Notes: generated by a model not told the origin, from the letters alone. Positions 13,311 through 18,533 are shown, numbered from the stretch's first letter. The stretch: DNA of 64,000 nt from Vulcanimicrobiales bacterium (GCA_038231455.1 JBBRLI010000001.1:64001-128000), one strand, 5' to 3'. A program made the numbers and translations.

Positions 13311-14159
13311 TTAGTCGTTGAGTCCAATTTGGAATTGCGGTTTGACGCCTTTGGATTCGTGGCGCTTCACGATCGACGTCCCGATCGCCATGAACTCGAT
13401 GATATGCGGTTGCCAGATATGATTTTTCTCGACAATTTGCATACCGACGACACCCTCGGCTCCGTGTGACTCGGCCTCGGCCTGCATGCGCGACATCGCA
13501 AGTTCGCGGGCATCGTAAATCGCCTCGGTATAATTTGGAAGTTCGATGTTGTTGCCGAGCGTGCGCATCGATTGCATGAAGCCTTGGTGCGCGATGTGGT
13601 AGACGCACGTGCCCATGACAAGTTCGGCTGGAATGTAGCCGGCTTCGTGGAGCTTGTAGAAATCTTGAACCGAGAGATCGCTTGTGAACGGTTTTCCGTT
13701 AACGGTCTTGTAGTCGCTACCCGCGGGCGCACTCACGGCCGTGCCAATCGCCGTAAATTCCAGTGCGTTCTCGGCCCACACATAGCCACCGACTTCGAGC
13801 CGCACGCCGACGATGCCGTCGGCACCGAGCGTCGCTGCCTCTTCTTCCATACGCGCCATGGCAAGTTCGCGGGCTTGGTACATCGCCTGCGTGAGCACGC
13901 CGAGTTCTTCGTTGTTGAAGTAATTCGCGTATTGCAGACCGACGTGATAGATCGAACTTCCGAGGACGAGGCCGAGCGGCTCCATCTCCAGTTCCTTGAG
14001 CAACACGAATTCCGAGACCGAGAGATCGCTTGTGAAAAGTGGCTTACCACCCTCACCGCGCATGCGCCGCAGACGCGAGATGGCATCGACCGGCACACCG
14101 CCGGGCGTGACGCGGACGTTCGACTGTTGGTTACCGCGATTACCGCCAAAAAAACTCAC
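13311..14159 (-). CDS. Tandem YbjQ/UPF0145 (putative heavy-metal-binding) domain protein
   Basis: Two copies of FTSDLSV..LVxG..YH..ARELAMxRMxxEA..GAxGxVG..EFxAIGT. Confidence 0.85.
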   Translation of the reverse strand: MSFFGGNRGNQQSNVRVTPGGVPVDAISRLRRMRGEGGKPLFTSDLSVSEFVLLKELEMEPLGLVLGSSIYHVGLQYANYFNNEELGVLTQAMYQARELAMARMEEEAATLGADGIVGVRLEVGGYVWAENALEFTAIGTAVSAPAGSDYKTVNGKPFTSDLSVQDFYKLHEAGYIPAELVMGTCVYHIAHQGFMQSMRTLGNNIELPNYTEAIYDARELAMSRMQAEAESHGAEGVVGMQIVEKNHIWQPHIIEFMAIGTSIVKRHESKGVKPQFQIGLND

Positions 14160-14956: not shown

Positions 14957-15922
14957 TCACGCCGGGTCGAGCGCCGTCATCGACGCTGCCGCATAGCGGT
15001 CGCCGACGGCCGAACCCATGGGGAACGCCGCCTCGAGTTGGCCCACGTCATCCGGGCTCAGAACGAGATCGAGCGAGGCAAGGTTTTCATCCAAACGCGT
15101 GCGGCGTTTGGTACCGGGGATCGGCACGATATCGCTTCCGCGCGAAAGCACCCACGCGAGGGCTACTTGGGCTTTGGTCGCGCCTTTTGCTTGCGCGATC
15201 CGTTCTAGTGCGGACACCAGTTCCGCGTTCTTCGCGAAGTTCTCGCCCGAGAAGCGCGGTTGGTTGCGGCGCACGTCATCCGCTGCAAGATCGCCGGGTG
15301 AGGTGAACGCGCCGGTCAGGAAACCGCGGCCGAGCGGACTGTAGGCAACAAACGTGATCCCAAGCTCCCGGGTCGTTGCAAGGACACCGTTTTCGGGATC
15401 GCGCGTCCACAGCGAATACTCCGTTTGCAGCGCGGAGATCGGGTGGACGGCGTGCGCCTTACGCATCGTTGCGGGCGATGCTTCGGAGAGGCCGAGATAT
15501 TTGACCTTGCCGGCCTTCACCAACGTCGCCATTGCGCCGACCGTTTCTTCAATCGGCAACACTTTATTGACGCGGTGCATGTAGTACAGATCGATCGTCT
15601 CGATGCCCAGCTTTTTCAGACTTGCATCGCACGCACGTGTGATATAGCTTGCGTCTTGCTTTTCATCGGGCGGCGGGTTACTGAATTTCGTCGCGAGCAC
15701 GACCGCATCGCGCCGGCCCGAAATCGCGCGGCCGACGAGTTCTTCATTGCCGGCGTACGCTTGCGCGGTGTCGAGGAAATTGACCCCACGGTCGAGCGCG
15801 TGATGGATCGTCGCGATCGATTCGGCATCATCGTACCCGGCGTAAAACGCCGACATGCCCATGCACCCAAGGCCAAGCGCCGAGAGTGCAACGCCGGTTG
15901 TTCCAAGTTTCCGATGCTCCAC
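14957..15922 (-). CDS. Aldo/keto reductase
   Basis: [44 protein letters not shown]. Start taken at GTG 15922. Confidence 0.95.
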
Positions 15923-15924
15923 GC

Positions 15925-16971
15925 TTAACTCCGGCTGAGGACGGTGAGCGTGAACGAACCGGGGACCATCGTGCGCGTGGGACGGGTTTGCCCTTCGGCC
16001 GGCGGACCGGTCTTGATCGTCGCCGAGACGACGTAGACATCGTGGTTCGTCGGATTGAGCGCAAGCGTCCGCGCCGTCGGAACCGTTGTGGCCGTTTGCG
16101 CAACCGCAAACGACGTCGGCGAAATCTCGCGCACGACGGTGAGGGTTCCCTCGCCATTCGAGCTCATTGCGAGTTGGGTGCCCGGATCGAACGCCGTTGC
16201 GTCGACGCCTTTGCCGATCGCCGGCGTTGCAAGCACTTTGCCGGTGTCGGTATCGACGATCGCCATCATTTGATTCGAGCAACCCGCGAAAAGCCGGTGG
16301 TGCTTCGTGTCGGCGGCAAGGCCGGTCGGCTCTTCGCACGGCGCGATCGGCCAGGTTTTTGCGACGGTATTCGACTTTGCGTCGATCGCGACGATCTGCG
16401 CCTTATCCTCGAGATTCACGTACATCATGCCGTTGTCGCCGGCCGCAGCGAACTCCGGTACGCCGCCGATCTCGATCGTCGCGAGCACGGCGTTTGATTT
16501 TGCATCGATCGCAATCGCCGAGGTCGCGCCGTGATTGAATGAATACACGCGTTTGGTCACGGGCTCGTACACGATCGCATCGGGATTTTTTCCGGTCGTC
16601 GCAATCGTGGCCGTGGTTTTGAGCGTCGCAAGATCGAAAACGGTCAGGCTGCCGTCACGGCCGTTGCTCGTAAAGCCTTTGCCGAGCTCCGGTGCAAGCG
16701 CGATTCCGTGCACACCCGGTGTCTGCGGAATATCGCCGACGATCGCGCCCGTTGCGGGATCGACAACCATGACATGCGTCGAGCGCGAGATGAACAGATG
16801 CTTGGTGCTCGGGTCGTAGATCAAATAATCCCAACCGCCATCGCCGCCGAGTGCGAACGATTTAGCGACCGTATAGTCACCGGTTGCGGCCGCGACGGGC
16901 GCCGCGGCGAACGAGGGGAGCACCAGGGCCAAGGCTAGGGCGGCCGTCAGGCGCGCGAAGGATGTCTGCAT
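15925..16971 (-). CDS. Secreted YncE/YVTN beta-propeller protein
   Basis: Signal peptide; [46 protein letters not shown]. Confidence 0.88.
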
Positions 16972-17014
16972 GGGCGGCTAGGTACGCCGCCGGAGACCGT
17001 TTTCCCTAAGCGTT

Positions 17015-17425
17015 CTAGCCGAAATAGTCTTCCATGAATTTGCCGTAGGGCGTCCCCTCGATGGGAAATCCCGCTTCCGTCACTTTTTTCTTTGCGCCAT
17101 TCAGACCCGTGCCGTCTTTCTCCGAGGTGACGATACCGGCTGCGACCGCAGCCCGCGTCGCACCCGCTCAATGAATGAGGACGGGGCCTGTTGCACGATC
17201 GACCGCTTCACGAATTTTCTCGATGTCGGCCCGGGTCACCACGTCAATCGTCCACGGCACCGACGCATAGGTGACGTCGGTTCCGGCGAGCGCATCTTTG
17301 GTGGAGTTGCCCTCTTCCGCGTCGCCGCGAATGTTCACAACAGTCGAGAACCGACCAGAGGTGAGTTCGTCCTTCGAGGGCTGGCCGCCGACCGTGATCC
17401 CGCCGACCGTAGCTTCGTTCTTCAT
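17015..17425 (-). CDS. Putative selenoprotein: DUF442/Blh-like phosphatase-fold sulfurtransferase with Sec (TGA at 17168-17170) at the catalytic Cys position, 136 aa
   Basis: N-terminal GGQP..VVNIR..EE motif. Read-through gives GPVLIH-U-AGATRA, matching the family PVLxHCxxxxR loop; frame then stays open to TAG at 17015-17017. SECIS-like hairpin follows the TGA. Confidence 0.8.
17126..17164 (-). promoter_or_regulatory. Bacterial SECIS-like element
   Basis: Apical hairpin GGCUGC-GGUC-GCAGCC (17153-17138) with its loop at +21 to +24 after UGA; lower stem GGUG/CACC plus CGA/UCG. Confidence 0.72.
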
Positions 17426-17474
17426 GGCTCGCGGGTTCGCGGGGACCGTGCGCCGCGCCCCCGTAGTACCGAGC

Positions 17475-18533
17475 ATGCCCGAACGTCACTTTGCCAGCGA
17501 TAACAACGCCGGCGTCCATCCTGCGCTCCTCGCTGCGATTGCCGAGGCGAATCACGGCCACGTCGCCGGATACGGCAGCGATCCGTATACCGAAGCGGCC
17601 GAAGCGACGCTGCGCGGCATGCTCGGCAATGATGCACGCGTGATGTTTGCCTTCAATGGCACCGGTGCGAACGTCGTCGCGCTAGCCGCGGCGCTGCGCC
17701 CGCATCAAGCGGTGATCACGCCGGTAAAATCACATCTCAACGTGGATGAGTGCGGCGCATACGAACGCTTTGCCGGCAGCAATCTCATCGTGGTCGAGGT
17801 GGAGAACGGGAAACTCACGCCGGCGGGCATCGCAGCGCACATGCACGGTATCGGCGATCCGCATCACGTGCAACCCGCGGCAATCTCCATATCGCAATCG
17901 ACAGAAGTCGGGACCGTCTACTCGGTGCAAGAACTCGCCGCGCTCGGTGAGGCCTGCCGCAAGCACGGCCTCTTCTTTCACCTGGACGGCGCGCGTCTTG
18001 CAAATGCCGCTGCCTCCCTCGGCGTCGACCTGCGGACCATGCTCGTCGACACCGGTGTAACGGCGTTCACGTTTGGCGCGACAAAAAACGGTGCGATGTT
18101 TGGCGAAGCGATCGTCTTCTTACACGACCATCCCGCGCTCGAAGTCGCGCCGTATACGCGCAAATCCGGCATGCAGCTCGCATCGAAGATGCGCTTCGTC
18201 GCCGCGCAGTTCAACGCGCTCCTGCACGACGATCTCTGGCTAAAAAATGCTGCGCATGCGAATCGCATGGCACAGCGTTTCGCCGAACACGTGCAGCACA
18301 TCGAGGGTGTGCGGCTGGCCTACCCGGTCGAAGCGAACGGTATCTTTGCGCACGTCCCCTCCGAGTCGATCCCCGAACTTCAGCGCGAACGCAACTTCTA
18401 CGTTTGGGATCACGACGCGTCGGTCGTACGCTGGATGACGGCCTTTGACACGACTGAAGAGGACGTCGATGATTTCGTAAGCGCCATCGCTCGCGTGCTC
18501 GGCCGACCGACGCCGACGCTGATCGAGCACTAA
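17475..18533 (+). CDS. ltaE: Low-specificity L-threonine aldolase (PLP)
   Basis: FASDN, YGSD, FNGTGAN, SHLNVDECGA, HLDGARLANA, GATKNG, QLASKMRF. Confidence 0.9.
   Translation: MPERHFASDNNAGVHPALLAAIAEANHGHVAGYGSDPYTEAAEATLRGMLGNDARVMFAFNGTGANVVALAAALRPHQAVITPVKSHLNVDECGAYERFAGSNLIVVEVENGKLTPAGIAAHMHGIGDPHHVQPAAISISQSTEVGTVYSVQELAALGEACRKHGLFFHLDGARLANAAASLGVDLRTMLVDTGVTAFTFGATKNGAMFGEAIVFLHDHPALEVAPYTRKSGMQLASKMRFVAAQFNALLHDDLWLKNAAHANRMAQRFAEHVQHIEGVRLAYPVEANGIFAHVPSESIPELQRERNFYVWDHDASVVRWMTAFDTTEEDVDDFVSAIARVLGRPTPTLIEH

What the first reader, a model, noticed from the sequence alone, without database searches (positions are those of the whole stretch)
17015..17425. Hidden selenoprotein: DUF442/Blh-type sulfurtransferase with UGA at the catalytic Cys and a SECIS hairpin
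Seen in sequence: the minus-strand ORF that the track ends at ...GPVLIH* continues in frame after TGA as AGATRAAVAAGIVTSEKDGTGLNGAKKKVTEAGFPIEGTPYGKFMEDYFG* (136 aa in total). Directly 3' of the UGA is the hairpin GGCUGC-GGUC-GCAGCC on a lower stem, with its loop at +21. Established: DUF442/Blh phosphatase-fold sulfurtransferases carry a PVLxH/YCxxxxR active-site loop, so the TGA falls exactly on the nucleophilic Cys. The E. coli fdhF SECIS has a GGUC-containing loop at a similar distance. Inference: this is a Sec-containing (per)sulfide or selenium transferase, or a phosphatase, that standard gene callers truncate. I cannot say whether this family is already catalogued as a selenoprotein.
Basis: partly seen in the sequence, partly recalled or inferred. 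Interest (0 to 1): 0.88.

Follow-up and report, generated by a model that had tools for sequence, protein, structure and literature searches.

The report
Hidden selenoprotein with phosphatase-like fold
A small enzyme gene that gene callers cut short at a TGA codon really continues through it, almost certainly by inserting selenocysteine at the catalytic site, and the same hidden gene is conserved across many genomes of the soil phylum Eremiobacterota.

Summary
The minus-strand gene at 17015-17425 encodes a 136-aa DUF442/BLH-phosphatase-fold protein with an in-frame TGA (17168-17170) at the catalytic Cys of the H-C-x4-R loop.

- **Conserved TGA:** of 46 distinct orthologs from genomes not flagged unpublished, 38 carry TGA at that codon and 8 carry TGC/TGT.
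- **Hairpin:** all 38 TGA forms keep a 5-6 bp stem with a GGUC loop starting 20 nt after the UGA. Only 1 of 8 Cys forms keeps it. Two stem pairs covary at synonymous third positions.
- **Translation past the UGA:** dN/dS is 0.32 downstream and 0.33 upstream.
- **Sec machinery:** the genome has selA, selB, tRNA-Sec, a Sec-type selD and a Sec-type fdhA. The fdhA SECIS also has a 6-bp stem with a GGUC-starting loop.
- **Fold:** the AlphaFold model (pLDDT 97) matches solved DUF442 structures, with Sec at the strand-to-helix P-loop.

The most likely function is a rhodanese-type sulfur (or selenium) transferase. That part is inferred from characterised DUF442 domains.

I found no PTP-fold or DUF442 family in a 2026 catalogue of 119 prokaryotic selenoprotein families, and no dedicated NCBIfam model. 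It therefore looks like an uncatalogued selenoprotein family that databases truncate to 85 aa.

The parts
17015..17425 (-). Full selenoprotein gene: 136 codons including UGA-Sec at codon 86, plus the TAG stop at 17015-17017
   Evidence: The start at ATG 17425 (MKNE...) is shared by orthologs. PF04273 and TIGR01244 match across the UGA.
17168..17170 (-). In-frame UGA read as selenocysteine (U86), aligned with the catalytic Cys of the C-x4-R loop
   Evidence: 38 of 46 distinct published orthologs have TGA here and 8 have TGC/TGT.
17153..17173 (-). Active-site P-loop coding segment H-U-A-G-A-T-R (H85 to R91)
   Evidence: C86 and R91 are invariant and H85 and T90 nearly invariant in alignment A2. 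The segment aligns to HC-x4-R of PDB 3gxg and YC-x4-R of 2f46. In the model it sits between strand 82-85 and helix 90-104.
17138..17153 (-). SECIS core: 6-bp stem GGCUGC/GCAGCC with apical loop GGUC (loop at 17144-17147), 20 nt after the UGA
   Evidence: Same loop type and distance as this genome's fdhA and E. coli fdhF.
17168..17476 (-). The truncated ORF that ordinary gene calling yields (102 aa from ATG 17476; 85 aa from ATG 17425)
   Evidence: Database relatives are mostly 85-aa proteins ending ...LIH.

Best explanation
The gene at 17015-17425 (-) encodes a genuine selenoprotein. It is a stand-alone, 136-aa DUF442 (BLH-phosphatase / PTP-fold) enzyme whose active-site nucleophile in the H-[C/U]-x4-R loop is selenocysteine.

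During translation, the hairpin 20 nt downstream of the UGA (6-bp GC-rich stem, GGUC loop) is bound by SelB carrying Sec-tRNA(Sec), so the UGA is read as Sec instead of stop (shown by comparative evidence; the physical insertion is inferred).

By analogy with characterised DUF442 domains, the protein most likely acts as a rhodanese-type transferase. It would take up a sulfane sulfur (or selenium) atom on the selenolate as a selenosulfide intermediate and pass it to a thiol or other acceptor (inferred, about 50% likely).

The family is confined, among the genomes searched, to one order of the phylum Eremiobacterota. There the Sec form predominates and Cys forms are nested among Sec forms.
For: **1. 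Conserved UGA with Sec/Cys pairs.** 49 distinct orthologous genes were parsed, 46 of them from genomes not flagged unpublished. Of those 46, 38 have TGA and 8 have TGC/TGT at the same codon. Identity to the window protein runs down to about 40%.

**2. The sequence after the UGA is translated.** Full-length Cys homologs align to the end. Median dN/dS over 28 TGA-form genes (378 pairs) is 0.319 downstream against 0.331 upstream of the UGA, and 0.334 when the 10 SECIS codons are left out.

**3. SECIS.**
- The loop is GGUC and the stem has >=5 contiguous bp in 38 of 38 TGA forms, against 1 of 8 Cys forms.
- On 30 sequences, 98.3% of cells are paired and 4 of 6 pairs show double changes. The covariation score is 0.421 against 0.207 for shuffles (0 of 500 reach it), and slid controls score <=0.115.
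- The covarying columns are synonymous third positions: C-G 17 / U-A 13 with no mismatch, and C-G 14 / G-C 12. RNAalifold finds the same stem.
- This genome's fdhA has a 6-bp stem with loop GGUCU 18 nt after its UGA. E. coli fdhF has GGUC 18 nt after its UGA.

**4. Sec machinery in the same genome.**
- selA scores 520 bits.
- selB scores 275 bits (305 bits with its second matched stretch in the same frame).
- selD scores 385 bits and has its own in-frame TGA.
- tRNA-Sec scores 71.6 bits.
- All four are over their cut-offs, and fdhA has one TGA.
- Across genomes, 36 of 37 published TGA-form genomes have selA, against 5 of 10 Cys-only genomes.

**5. Fold.**
- The AlphaFold2 model has pLDDT 97.0 and pTM 0.91.
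- The top Foldseek hits are DUF442 structures 3gxh/3gxg (E 4.6e-7, TM 0.75-0.77), followed by Siw14 (6byf) and then NMA1982 2f46.
- The profile hits 3gxg at E 5.1e-8 and 2f46 at 1.3e-6, with Sec on their catalytic Cys.

**6. Function by analogy.** Passages read in two papers show that DUF442 domains have thiosulfate:cyanide and GSSH:sulfite sulfurtransferase activity that depends on this Cys (PMC5823870; PMC9163753). The window protein also matches the NCBIfam Blh model NF040641 at E 1.9e-9, well below that model's full-length cut-off (36.9 vs 625 bits).
Against: - No direct evidence of selenium in the protein and no expression data.
- In a single genome the hairpin is not remarkable. The fold z-score is -1.69, 4 of 6 pairs are forced by Ala codons, and the chance expectation is about 0.09.
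- One Cys form (L093) keeps the full hairpin with a GGUC loop, and 4 of 8 Cys forms keep a >=5-bp stem. The stem alone therefore does not discriminate.
- Rfam gave no SECIS-family match at E<=10 in 16000-18500.
- TIGR01244 scores 37.9 bits, far below its 85.85 cut-off, so this is a divergent branch of the family.
- Gene neighbourhood is not conserved. The lyase and beta-propeller neighbours occur only in 2 of 38 loci, and an aldo/keto reductase lies downstream in 4 of 38. No operon partner supports a sulfur role, and no SQR of the selenoprotein subtype was found.
- Related genomes are not independent samples, so the counts overstate the number of independent events.
Confidence: 0.88

Rival explanations
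1. It is a genuine selenoprotein, but its chemistry is not sulfur transfer. It could be a phosphohydrolase with a Se-P intermediate, an arsenate or other oxyanion reductase, or a selenium carrier feeding SelD.
For: The fold is the PTP/dual-specificity phosphatase fold, and many Foldseek hits are real phosphatases such as Siw14, PFA-DSP1, TpbA and Tk-PTP. No sulfur-oxidation genes sit next to it. The genome has 4 ordinary rhodanese-domain matches, all without in-frame stops, that could cover sulfur transfer.
Against: The loop is C-x4-R, one residue shorter than the C-x5-R of PTPs. The Asp at the position of a general acid (D61 in ...VPWTID...) is not conserved in alignment A2. The two DUF442 domains tested at the bench are sulfurtransferases.
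Confidence: 0.35
2. The TGA is a true stop. The 85-aa protein is the product, and the downstream 50 codons are conserved for some other reason, such as a separate small ORF or an RNA element.
For: Gene callers produce 85-aa proteins in dozens of assemblies. In some orthologs an ATG directly follows the TGA (H-U-M-G-G-T-R forms).
Against: The 85-aa product would lack the catalytic residue, the Arg of the loop and four helices of the fold. Downstream dN/dS is 0.32 in the same frame. Most TGA forms have Ala, not a start codon, after the TGA, and Cys forms also carry Met at that position. The TGA sits exactly on the invariant Cys column.
Confidence: 0.03
3. The UGA is read through, but as Cys, Trp or another standard residue (near-cognate suppression or a changed code), not as Sec.
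Against: TGA ends 477 of 1398 open frames of >=400 codons in this genome, so it is an ordinary stop (crude count). The hairpin type matches that of fdhA in the same genome. TGA forms occur with selA in 36 of 37 genomes.
Confidence: 0.03
4. It is a one-off nonsense mutation, pseudogene or sequencing error.
For: None beyond the presence of the stop codon itself.
Against: The same TGA occurs in 38 distinct published orthologs from two families of the order, down to about 40% identity.
Confidence: 0.01

Closest known systems
DUF442 (PF04273, BLH_phosphatase) sulfurtransferase domains: the N-terminal domain of Blh from Xylella/Agrobacterium and the DUF442 domain of Cupriavidus pinatubonensis SQR
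   Same: Same Pfam family and a match to the NCBIfam Blh model at E 1.9e-9, well below that model's full-length cut-off. Same C-x4-R loop with a single catalytic nucleophile. Those domains transfer sulfane sulfur (passages read).
   Different: Here the nucleophile is encoded by UGA (Sec). The protein is stand-alone, not fused to or next to a persulfide dioxygenase or SQR. It scores below the TIGR01244 cut-off.
Solved DUF442 structures 3gxg/3gxh (Shewanella putrefaciens) and 2f46 (Neisseria meningitidis NMA1982)
   Same: Best structural matches (TM 0.69-0.77) and best sequence-profile matches (E 5.1e-8 and 1.3e-6). Sec aligns with their Cys.
   Different: Only 18-22% identity. They carry Cys, and their functions are listed as putative phosphatase or hypothetical protein.
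Predicted rhodanese-like selenoproteins (forms 1-5 in Table 1 of PMC13188914)
   Same: Also sulfurtransferase-type proteins in which Sec replaces the active-site Cys. A likely functional analogue.
   Different: Unrelated fold and family (PF00581). The window protein gives no Pfam match to rhodanese.
E. coli fdhF SECIS, and the fdhA SECIS of this genome
   Same: A GC-rich stem capped by a loop starting GGUC, 18 nt (fdhF and this genome's fdhA) against 20 nt (this gene) after the UGA.
   Different: The E. coli element has a longer lower helix. I did not test for its bulged U, which I recall as part of the SelB contact. Here only the 6-bp apical stem is conserved.

Membership tests
Bacterial selenoprotein gene (SelB/SECIS-dependent UGA recoding) | In-frame UGA aligned with Cys in homologs (Sec/Cys pair) | tested here: met
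   38 TGA against 8 TGC/TGT at one codon in 46 distinct published orthologs. The column is invariant in A2.
Bacterial selenoprotein gene (SelB/SECIS-dependent UGA recoding) | Protein-level conservation continues downstream of the UGA in the same frame | tested here: met
   dN/dS is 0.319 downstream against 0.331 upstream. Alignment runs to the C-terminus.
Bacterial selenoprotein gene (SelB/SECIS-dependent UGA recoding) | Stem-loop just downstream of the UGA with G/U in the apical loop, conserved and covarying | tested here: met
   GGUC loop in 38 of 38 TGA forms; 4 of 6 pairs show double changes.
Bacterial selenoprotein gene (SelB/SECIS-dependent UGA recoding) | selA, selB, selC and selD present in the genome | tested here: met
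   all over the curated cut-offs.
Bacterial selenoprotein gene (SelB/SECIS-dependent UGA recoding) | Selenium physically present in the polypeptide | not testable with these tools
   Needs 75Se labelling or mass spectrometry.
Rfam curated SECIS families | Match to a curated covariance model | tested here: not met
   No SECIS family among the 4 matches at E<=10 in window 16000-18500.
PF04273 BLH_phosphatase / DUF442 | Pfam score over the gathering threshold | tested here: met
   27.7 bits against 26.1, residues 42-113. This is marginal. A six-frame genome search scored 22.4 bits with the stop in place.
PF04273 BLH_phosphatase / DUF442 | PTP-like fold with a C-x4-R loop between a strand and a helix | tested here: met
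   Model pLDDT 97. Top Foldseek hits are 3gxh/3gxg, then Siw14 (6byf), then 2f46. Loop alignment.
TIGR01244 family sulfur transferase (NCBIfam) | Score over the curated cut-off | tested here: not met
   37.9 bits against 85.85. Related, but not a member by NCBI's threshold.
PF04273 BLH_phosphatase / DUF442 | Sulfurtransferase (rhodanese-type) activity | not testable with these tools
   Known for Blh and the SQR-fused DUF442 only.
Classical protein tyrosine / dual-specificity phosphatases | H-C-x5-R(S/T) signature | tested here: not met
   The loop is U-A-G-A-T-R, which is C-x4-R.
Classical protein tyrosine / dual-specificity phosphatases | Conserved general-acid Asp on the loop before the P-loop strand | tested here: not met
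   D61 (VPWTID) is replaced by Q, A or L in other orthologs in A2.
Rhodanese (PF00581) | Sequence match to the rhodanese domain | tested here: not met
   No PF00581 hit at E<=1. The likeness is functional only.

The most novel reading that the evidence does not exclude
This is a previously uncatalogued prokaryotic selenoprotein family and the first with a protein-tyrosine-phosphatase-type fold, with Sec in a C-x4-R P-loop. It is specific to one order of Eremiobacterota, a phylum in which the Sec trait is near-universal (selA in 341 of 401 genomes). It may act as a dedicated sulfur/selenium relay using a selenosulfide or diselenide intermediate. Public databases truncate it throughout to an 85-aa 'putative phosphatase'.
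Probability: 0.6. Interest if true: 0.7.

Novelty: new member of a known kind. Interest (0 to 1): 0.62.

Why it matters
- **Annotation:** it corrects a systematic error. Dozens of Eremiobacterota assemblies and many metagenome proteins carry an 85-aa stump that lacks the active site.
- **Selenoprotein catalogue:** if it is truly uncatalogued, it adds a new fold class to the list of selenoproteins. Most known ones are thioredoxin-fold redox proteins.
- **Enzymology:** it offers natural Sec/Cys pairs within one small, confidently modelled enzyme. That is a convenient system for asking what Sec buys in a P-loop nucleophile.
- **Ecology:** it flags Eremiobacterota (peat, permafrost and Antarctic soil bacteria without much cultured physiology) as heavy users of selenium.
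- **Expression:** the SECIS resembles that of E. coli fdhF, so heterologous expression for testing may be feasible.

Tried and rejected
- **Rfam:** the scan at E<=10 gave no SECIS family. The four weak hits (P10, RT-15, narK, Sphinx_1) lie elsewhere and below their thresholds.
- **Lower helix:** the single-sequence fold predicted a long lower helix. RNAalifold on 30 orthologs keeps only the 6-bp apical stem, so I dropped the lower helix.
- **Genome scan:** a scan of G000 for TGA + 14-26 nt + a GGTC-loop hairpin in an open frame gave 9 candidates. Only this gene has protein-like flanks. The scan missed fdhA and selD because their loops are GGUCU and GUU/GGUUC, so it is not a selenoproteome census.
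- **Synteny:** no conserved partner. In one genus of the sister family the gene lies about 4 kb after selA-selB, but an ABC ATPase and RNase D on the other strand lie between them, so it is not an operon.
- **Selenoprotein-type SQR (NF049943):** only weak matches far below the cut-off.
- **RNA evidence:** no RNA holder was listed, so no reads were laid.
- **Earlier findings of this scan:** nothing on this genome or sequence.
- **phmmer of the single protein against PDB:** only E 0.21 to 2f46. The profile search was needed.
- **Tree:** the bootstrap had not settled and many forks are open. It gives no root, so the direction of Sec/Cys change is not shown.

Full report
**1. What is in the sequence**

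On the minus strand, the frame that ordinary ORF calling ends at ...GPVLIH-TGA (ORF 17168..17476) continues in frame for 50 more codons to TAG at 17015-17017. The TGA occupies 17170-17168.

Orthologs all begin MKNE..., and some have a stop just upstream of that Met.

Fourteen nucleotides after the TGA comes GGCUGC-GGUC-GCAGCC (17153-17138), which forms in the minimum-energy fold.

**2. Is the hairpin more than chance?**

In this one genome, not convincingly.
- The fold z-score is -1.69.
- The peptide here is R-A-A-V-A-A. The GCN alanine codons force 4 of the 6 pairs.
- With codon usage taken from 9 genes of this genome (3928 codons), a GGUC loop on a >=5-bp stem is expected in 9% of synonymous recodings, and a 6-bp stem in 4%.

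The evidence comes from comparison with orthologs.

**3. Orthologs**

- A six-frame search of 61 related genomes found 12 with a match.
- A search of 401 genomes of the phylum found 50 with a match at E<=1e-10. All were in the window's own family (45 of 296) and its sister family (4 of 5). None were in the 99 genomes of the other 19 families. These two tallies include genomes flagged unpublished.
- A pattern scan of one genome per GTDB species returned 40 loci. The close ones are all Eremiobacterota / Vulcanimicrobiota / WPS-2 assemblies, a few of them labelled Rhodospirillales, plus one Acidiferrales Cys form.

After removing duplicates there are 49 distinct genes, 46 of them from genomes not flagged unpublished. 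Of these 46, 38 carry TGA and 8 carry TGC or TGT at the same codon.

Database proteins confirm the annotation error. Of 52 relatives found by word search, most are 85-aa proteins running from MKNE to LIH. They are named 'PTP superfamily phosphohydrolase (DUF442)', 'sulfur transferase domain-containing protein [Candidatus Elarobacter sp.]' or 'putative phosphatase [Candidatus Eremiobacteraeota]'. Only Cys forms are full length. In the 50%-identity library, nine of the best-scoring representatives match profile positions 1-85 and end there.

**4. The part after the UGA is translated**

Full-length Cys homologs (for example HC-MGGTRAA...GTPYGAFVEDYF) align with the read-through sequence to the last residues.

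I computed Nei-Gojobori dN/dS over 28 published TGA-form genes (378 pairs). Two of the 30 published TGA-form loci parsed were dropped because my start-finding rule failed on them.

| Segment | Median dN/dS |
|---|---|
| Upstream of the UGA | 0.331 |
| Downstream of the UGA | 0.319 |
| Downstream, without the first 10 codons | 0.334 |

dS is near saturation for many pairs.

**5. The hairpin is selected at the RNA level**

- All 38 TGA forms have the loop GGUC and at least 5 contiguous stem pairs.
- Among the 8 Cys forms, one (L093) keeps everything, four keep a >=5-bp stem with other loops (GACC, GACC, GCUC, GGUG), and three are broken.
- On 30 TGA-form sequences, 98.3% of cells pair and 4 of 6 pairs have double changes.
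- The covariation score is 0.421 against 0.207 in shuffles (0 of 500 reach it) and <=0.115 in slid controls. RNAalifold predicts the same stem.
- The two informative pairs are synonymous third positions. One reads C-G in 17 and U-A in 13 sequences with no mismatch; the U-A state pairs the rare Ala codons GCU (6%) and GCA (16%). The other reads C-G in 14 and G-C in 12, with 3 mismatches.
- In one genus the flanking alanines became isoleucines with AAUCGC/GCGAUU, which still pairs.

Related genomes are not independent, so these counts overstate the number of events. However, the stem variants are spread over both deep clades of the tree.

**6. Sec machinery and sister SECIS elements**

The same genome has:
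- selA at 520 bits;
- selB at 275 bits (305 bits with its second matched stretch in the same frame);
- selD at 385 bits, itself with one in-frame TGA;
- tRNA-Sec at 71.6 bits.

All four are over their curated cut-offs. It also has an fdhA with one TGA.

| Gene | Hairpin after the UGA |
|---|---|
| This gene | 6-bp stem, loop GGUC, 20 nt after the UGA |
| fdhA (this genome) | GUCCCA-GGUCU-UGGGAC, 18 nt after the UGA |
| selD (this genome) | GGCGCAG-GUU-CUGCGCC, further downstream |
| fdhF (E. coli K-12) | loop GGUC, 18 nt after the UGA of codon 140 |

TGA is otherwise an ordinary stop here. It ends 477 of 1398 open frames of >=400 codons, which is a crude count.

Across the phylum, selA is found in 341 of 401 genomes. 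Of 37 published genomes whose match holds the TGA, 36 have selA. I verified the codon position in 30 of these. The exception is an 88%-complete assembly in 500 contigs. Of 10 genomes with only a Cys form, 5 have selA. For three of these ten, absence is inferred from their not being among the rows with a match.

**7. What the protein is**

- *Family matches:* Pfam gives PF04273 BLH_phosphatase at 27.7 bits (cut-off 26.1) over residues 42-113, which spans the Sec. NCBIfam gives TIGR01244 at 37.9 bits, below its 85.85 cut-off, and the Blh model at E 1.9e-9. This is the only PF04273 match in the genome.
- *Profile against PDB sequences:* a profile of 29 family members hits the DUF442 structures 3gxg (E 5.1e-8) and 2f46 (1.3e-6). 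The Sec column lies on their Cys, in HC-x4-R and YC-x4-R.
- *Structure:* the AlphaFold2 model is very confident (pLDDT 97.0, pTM 0.91) and places U86 between strand 82-85 and helix 90-104. Foldseek ranks 3gxh/3gxg first, followed by Siw14 (6byf), 2f46, plant PFA-DSP1, TpbA and Tk-PTP.
- *Not a classical phosphatase:* the loop is one residue shorter than the C-x5-R of true phosphatases, and no general-acid Asp is conserved.

**8. How it most likely works**

Shown by comparison: a UGA at the nucleophile, recoded with the help of a SelB-type hairpin.

Inferred: the chemistry. Two DUF442 domains have been tested at the bench.
- The Blh domain transfers sulfane sulfur from thiosulfate to cyanide or glutathione (PMC5823870, passages read).
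- The SQR-fused domain of Cupriavidus is a rhodanese whose activity is lost in C94S (PMC9163753, passages read).

By analogy, the selenolate would carry a sulfur (or selenium) atom as a selenosulfide and hand it on. I put this at about one in two. A phosphatase-like or selenium-carrier role is not excluded. Neighbouring genes do not help, because the neighbourhood changes from genus to genus.

**9. Evolution**

A maximum-likelihood tree of 34 published sequences was built with the Sec/Cys site masked. It has two deep clades (each 100/99). Both consist mostly of Sec forms with Cys forms nested inside. The label needs 4 changes, and at least 2 are forced by well-supported branches. The tree is unrooted and its bootstrap had not settled. 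Sec being ancestral, with repeated replacement by Cys, is the simpler reading but is not shown.

**10. Is it known?**

I read Table 1 of a May 2026 review that lists 119 prokaryotic selenoprotein families or subfamilies with their domain accessions (PMC13188914, section 7 parts 1-2). It contains no PF04273, TIGR01244, DUF442 or phosphatase-fold entry.

Term searches inside the papers below found no 'phosphatase' or 'DUF442'. The accession terms were searched in the first three papers only.
- That review
- deep-Sep
- BSepDB
- A 2022 review
- SelCysML

Library searches gave:
- 'DUF442' with 'selenoprotein': 0 papers
- 'Eremiobacter' with 'selenocysteine': 0 papers
- Selenocysteine + tyrosine phosphatase + bacterial selenoprotein: one irrelevant paper
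- PF04273/DUF442/TIGR01244 alone: 42 papers, 30 of them listed, and none of those is about selenium by title or abstract start

NCBIfam release 20.0 has no dedicated selenoprotein model that matches.

**11. Verdict**

The gene is a real, conserved selenoprotein that is mis-annotated throughout public databases. It works by the well-known bacterial recoding mechanism, so it is a new member of a known kind, but in a fold class not so far listed among selenoproteins.

Noticed in passing
G000 genome: C7:149899-150819 (selD), C4:66900-69905 (fdhA): Both selD and the formate dehydrogenase alpha subunit of this genome carry one in-frame TGA. With the DUF442 gene, the organism therefore has at least three selenoprotein genes. 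Their hairpins were read.
   Followed up: partly
phylum-wide search: selA was found in 341 of 401 Eremiobacterota genomes (99 of 116 genera), so the Sec trait looks near-universal in the phylum. No paper in the searched library pairs 'Eremiobacter*' with selenocysteine. The tally includes genomes flagged unpublished.
   Followed up: partly
L093 (genome G401), match at 1501-1911: A Cys form (TGC) keeps the complete 6-bp stem and GGUC loop in a genome that still has selA. It may be a recent Sec-to-Cys replacement, or it shows that the hairpin can persist without a UGA.
   Followed up: partly
L102 (G038:C72:38500-47500) and G037, G040: In one genus of the sister family the selenoprotein gene lies about 4 kb downstream of a thioredoxin-selA-selB cluster. 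An ABC ATPase and RNase D lie on the opposite strand in between.
   Followed up: yes
rows G221:C164:9453-9830 and G096:C12:207847-208023: Second, partial copies with several stops (2 TGA + 1 TAG) or only the C-terminal third. These may be decayed paralogs or assembly fragments. One genome flagged unpublished (G288) appears to hold both a Sec and a Cys copy.
   Followed up: no
window 15925-16971 (-) and 14957-15880 (-): Directly downstream of the selenoprotein gene lie a secreted-looking beta-propeller protein (weak DUF5074/WD40-type matches) and an aldo/keto reductase. An aldo/keto reductase also follows the gene in two Cys-form loci of other genera (4 of 38 loci).
   Followed up: partly
window 17469-18533 (+): The divergent neighbour is a beta-eliminating lyase (threonine-aldolase-like, PF01212). 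Its stop-free upstream extension (ORF 17271..18533) overlaps the 5' end of the selenoprotein gene on the other strand. The two starts (17425 on minus, about 17469 on plus) are about 45 bp apart and share a short divergent promoter region.
   Followed up: no
window 13311-14159 (-): A 282-aa protein with two YbjQ_1 (putative heavy-metal-binding) domains, followed by a 254-aa ORF with no Pfam match.
   Followed up: no
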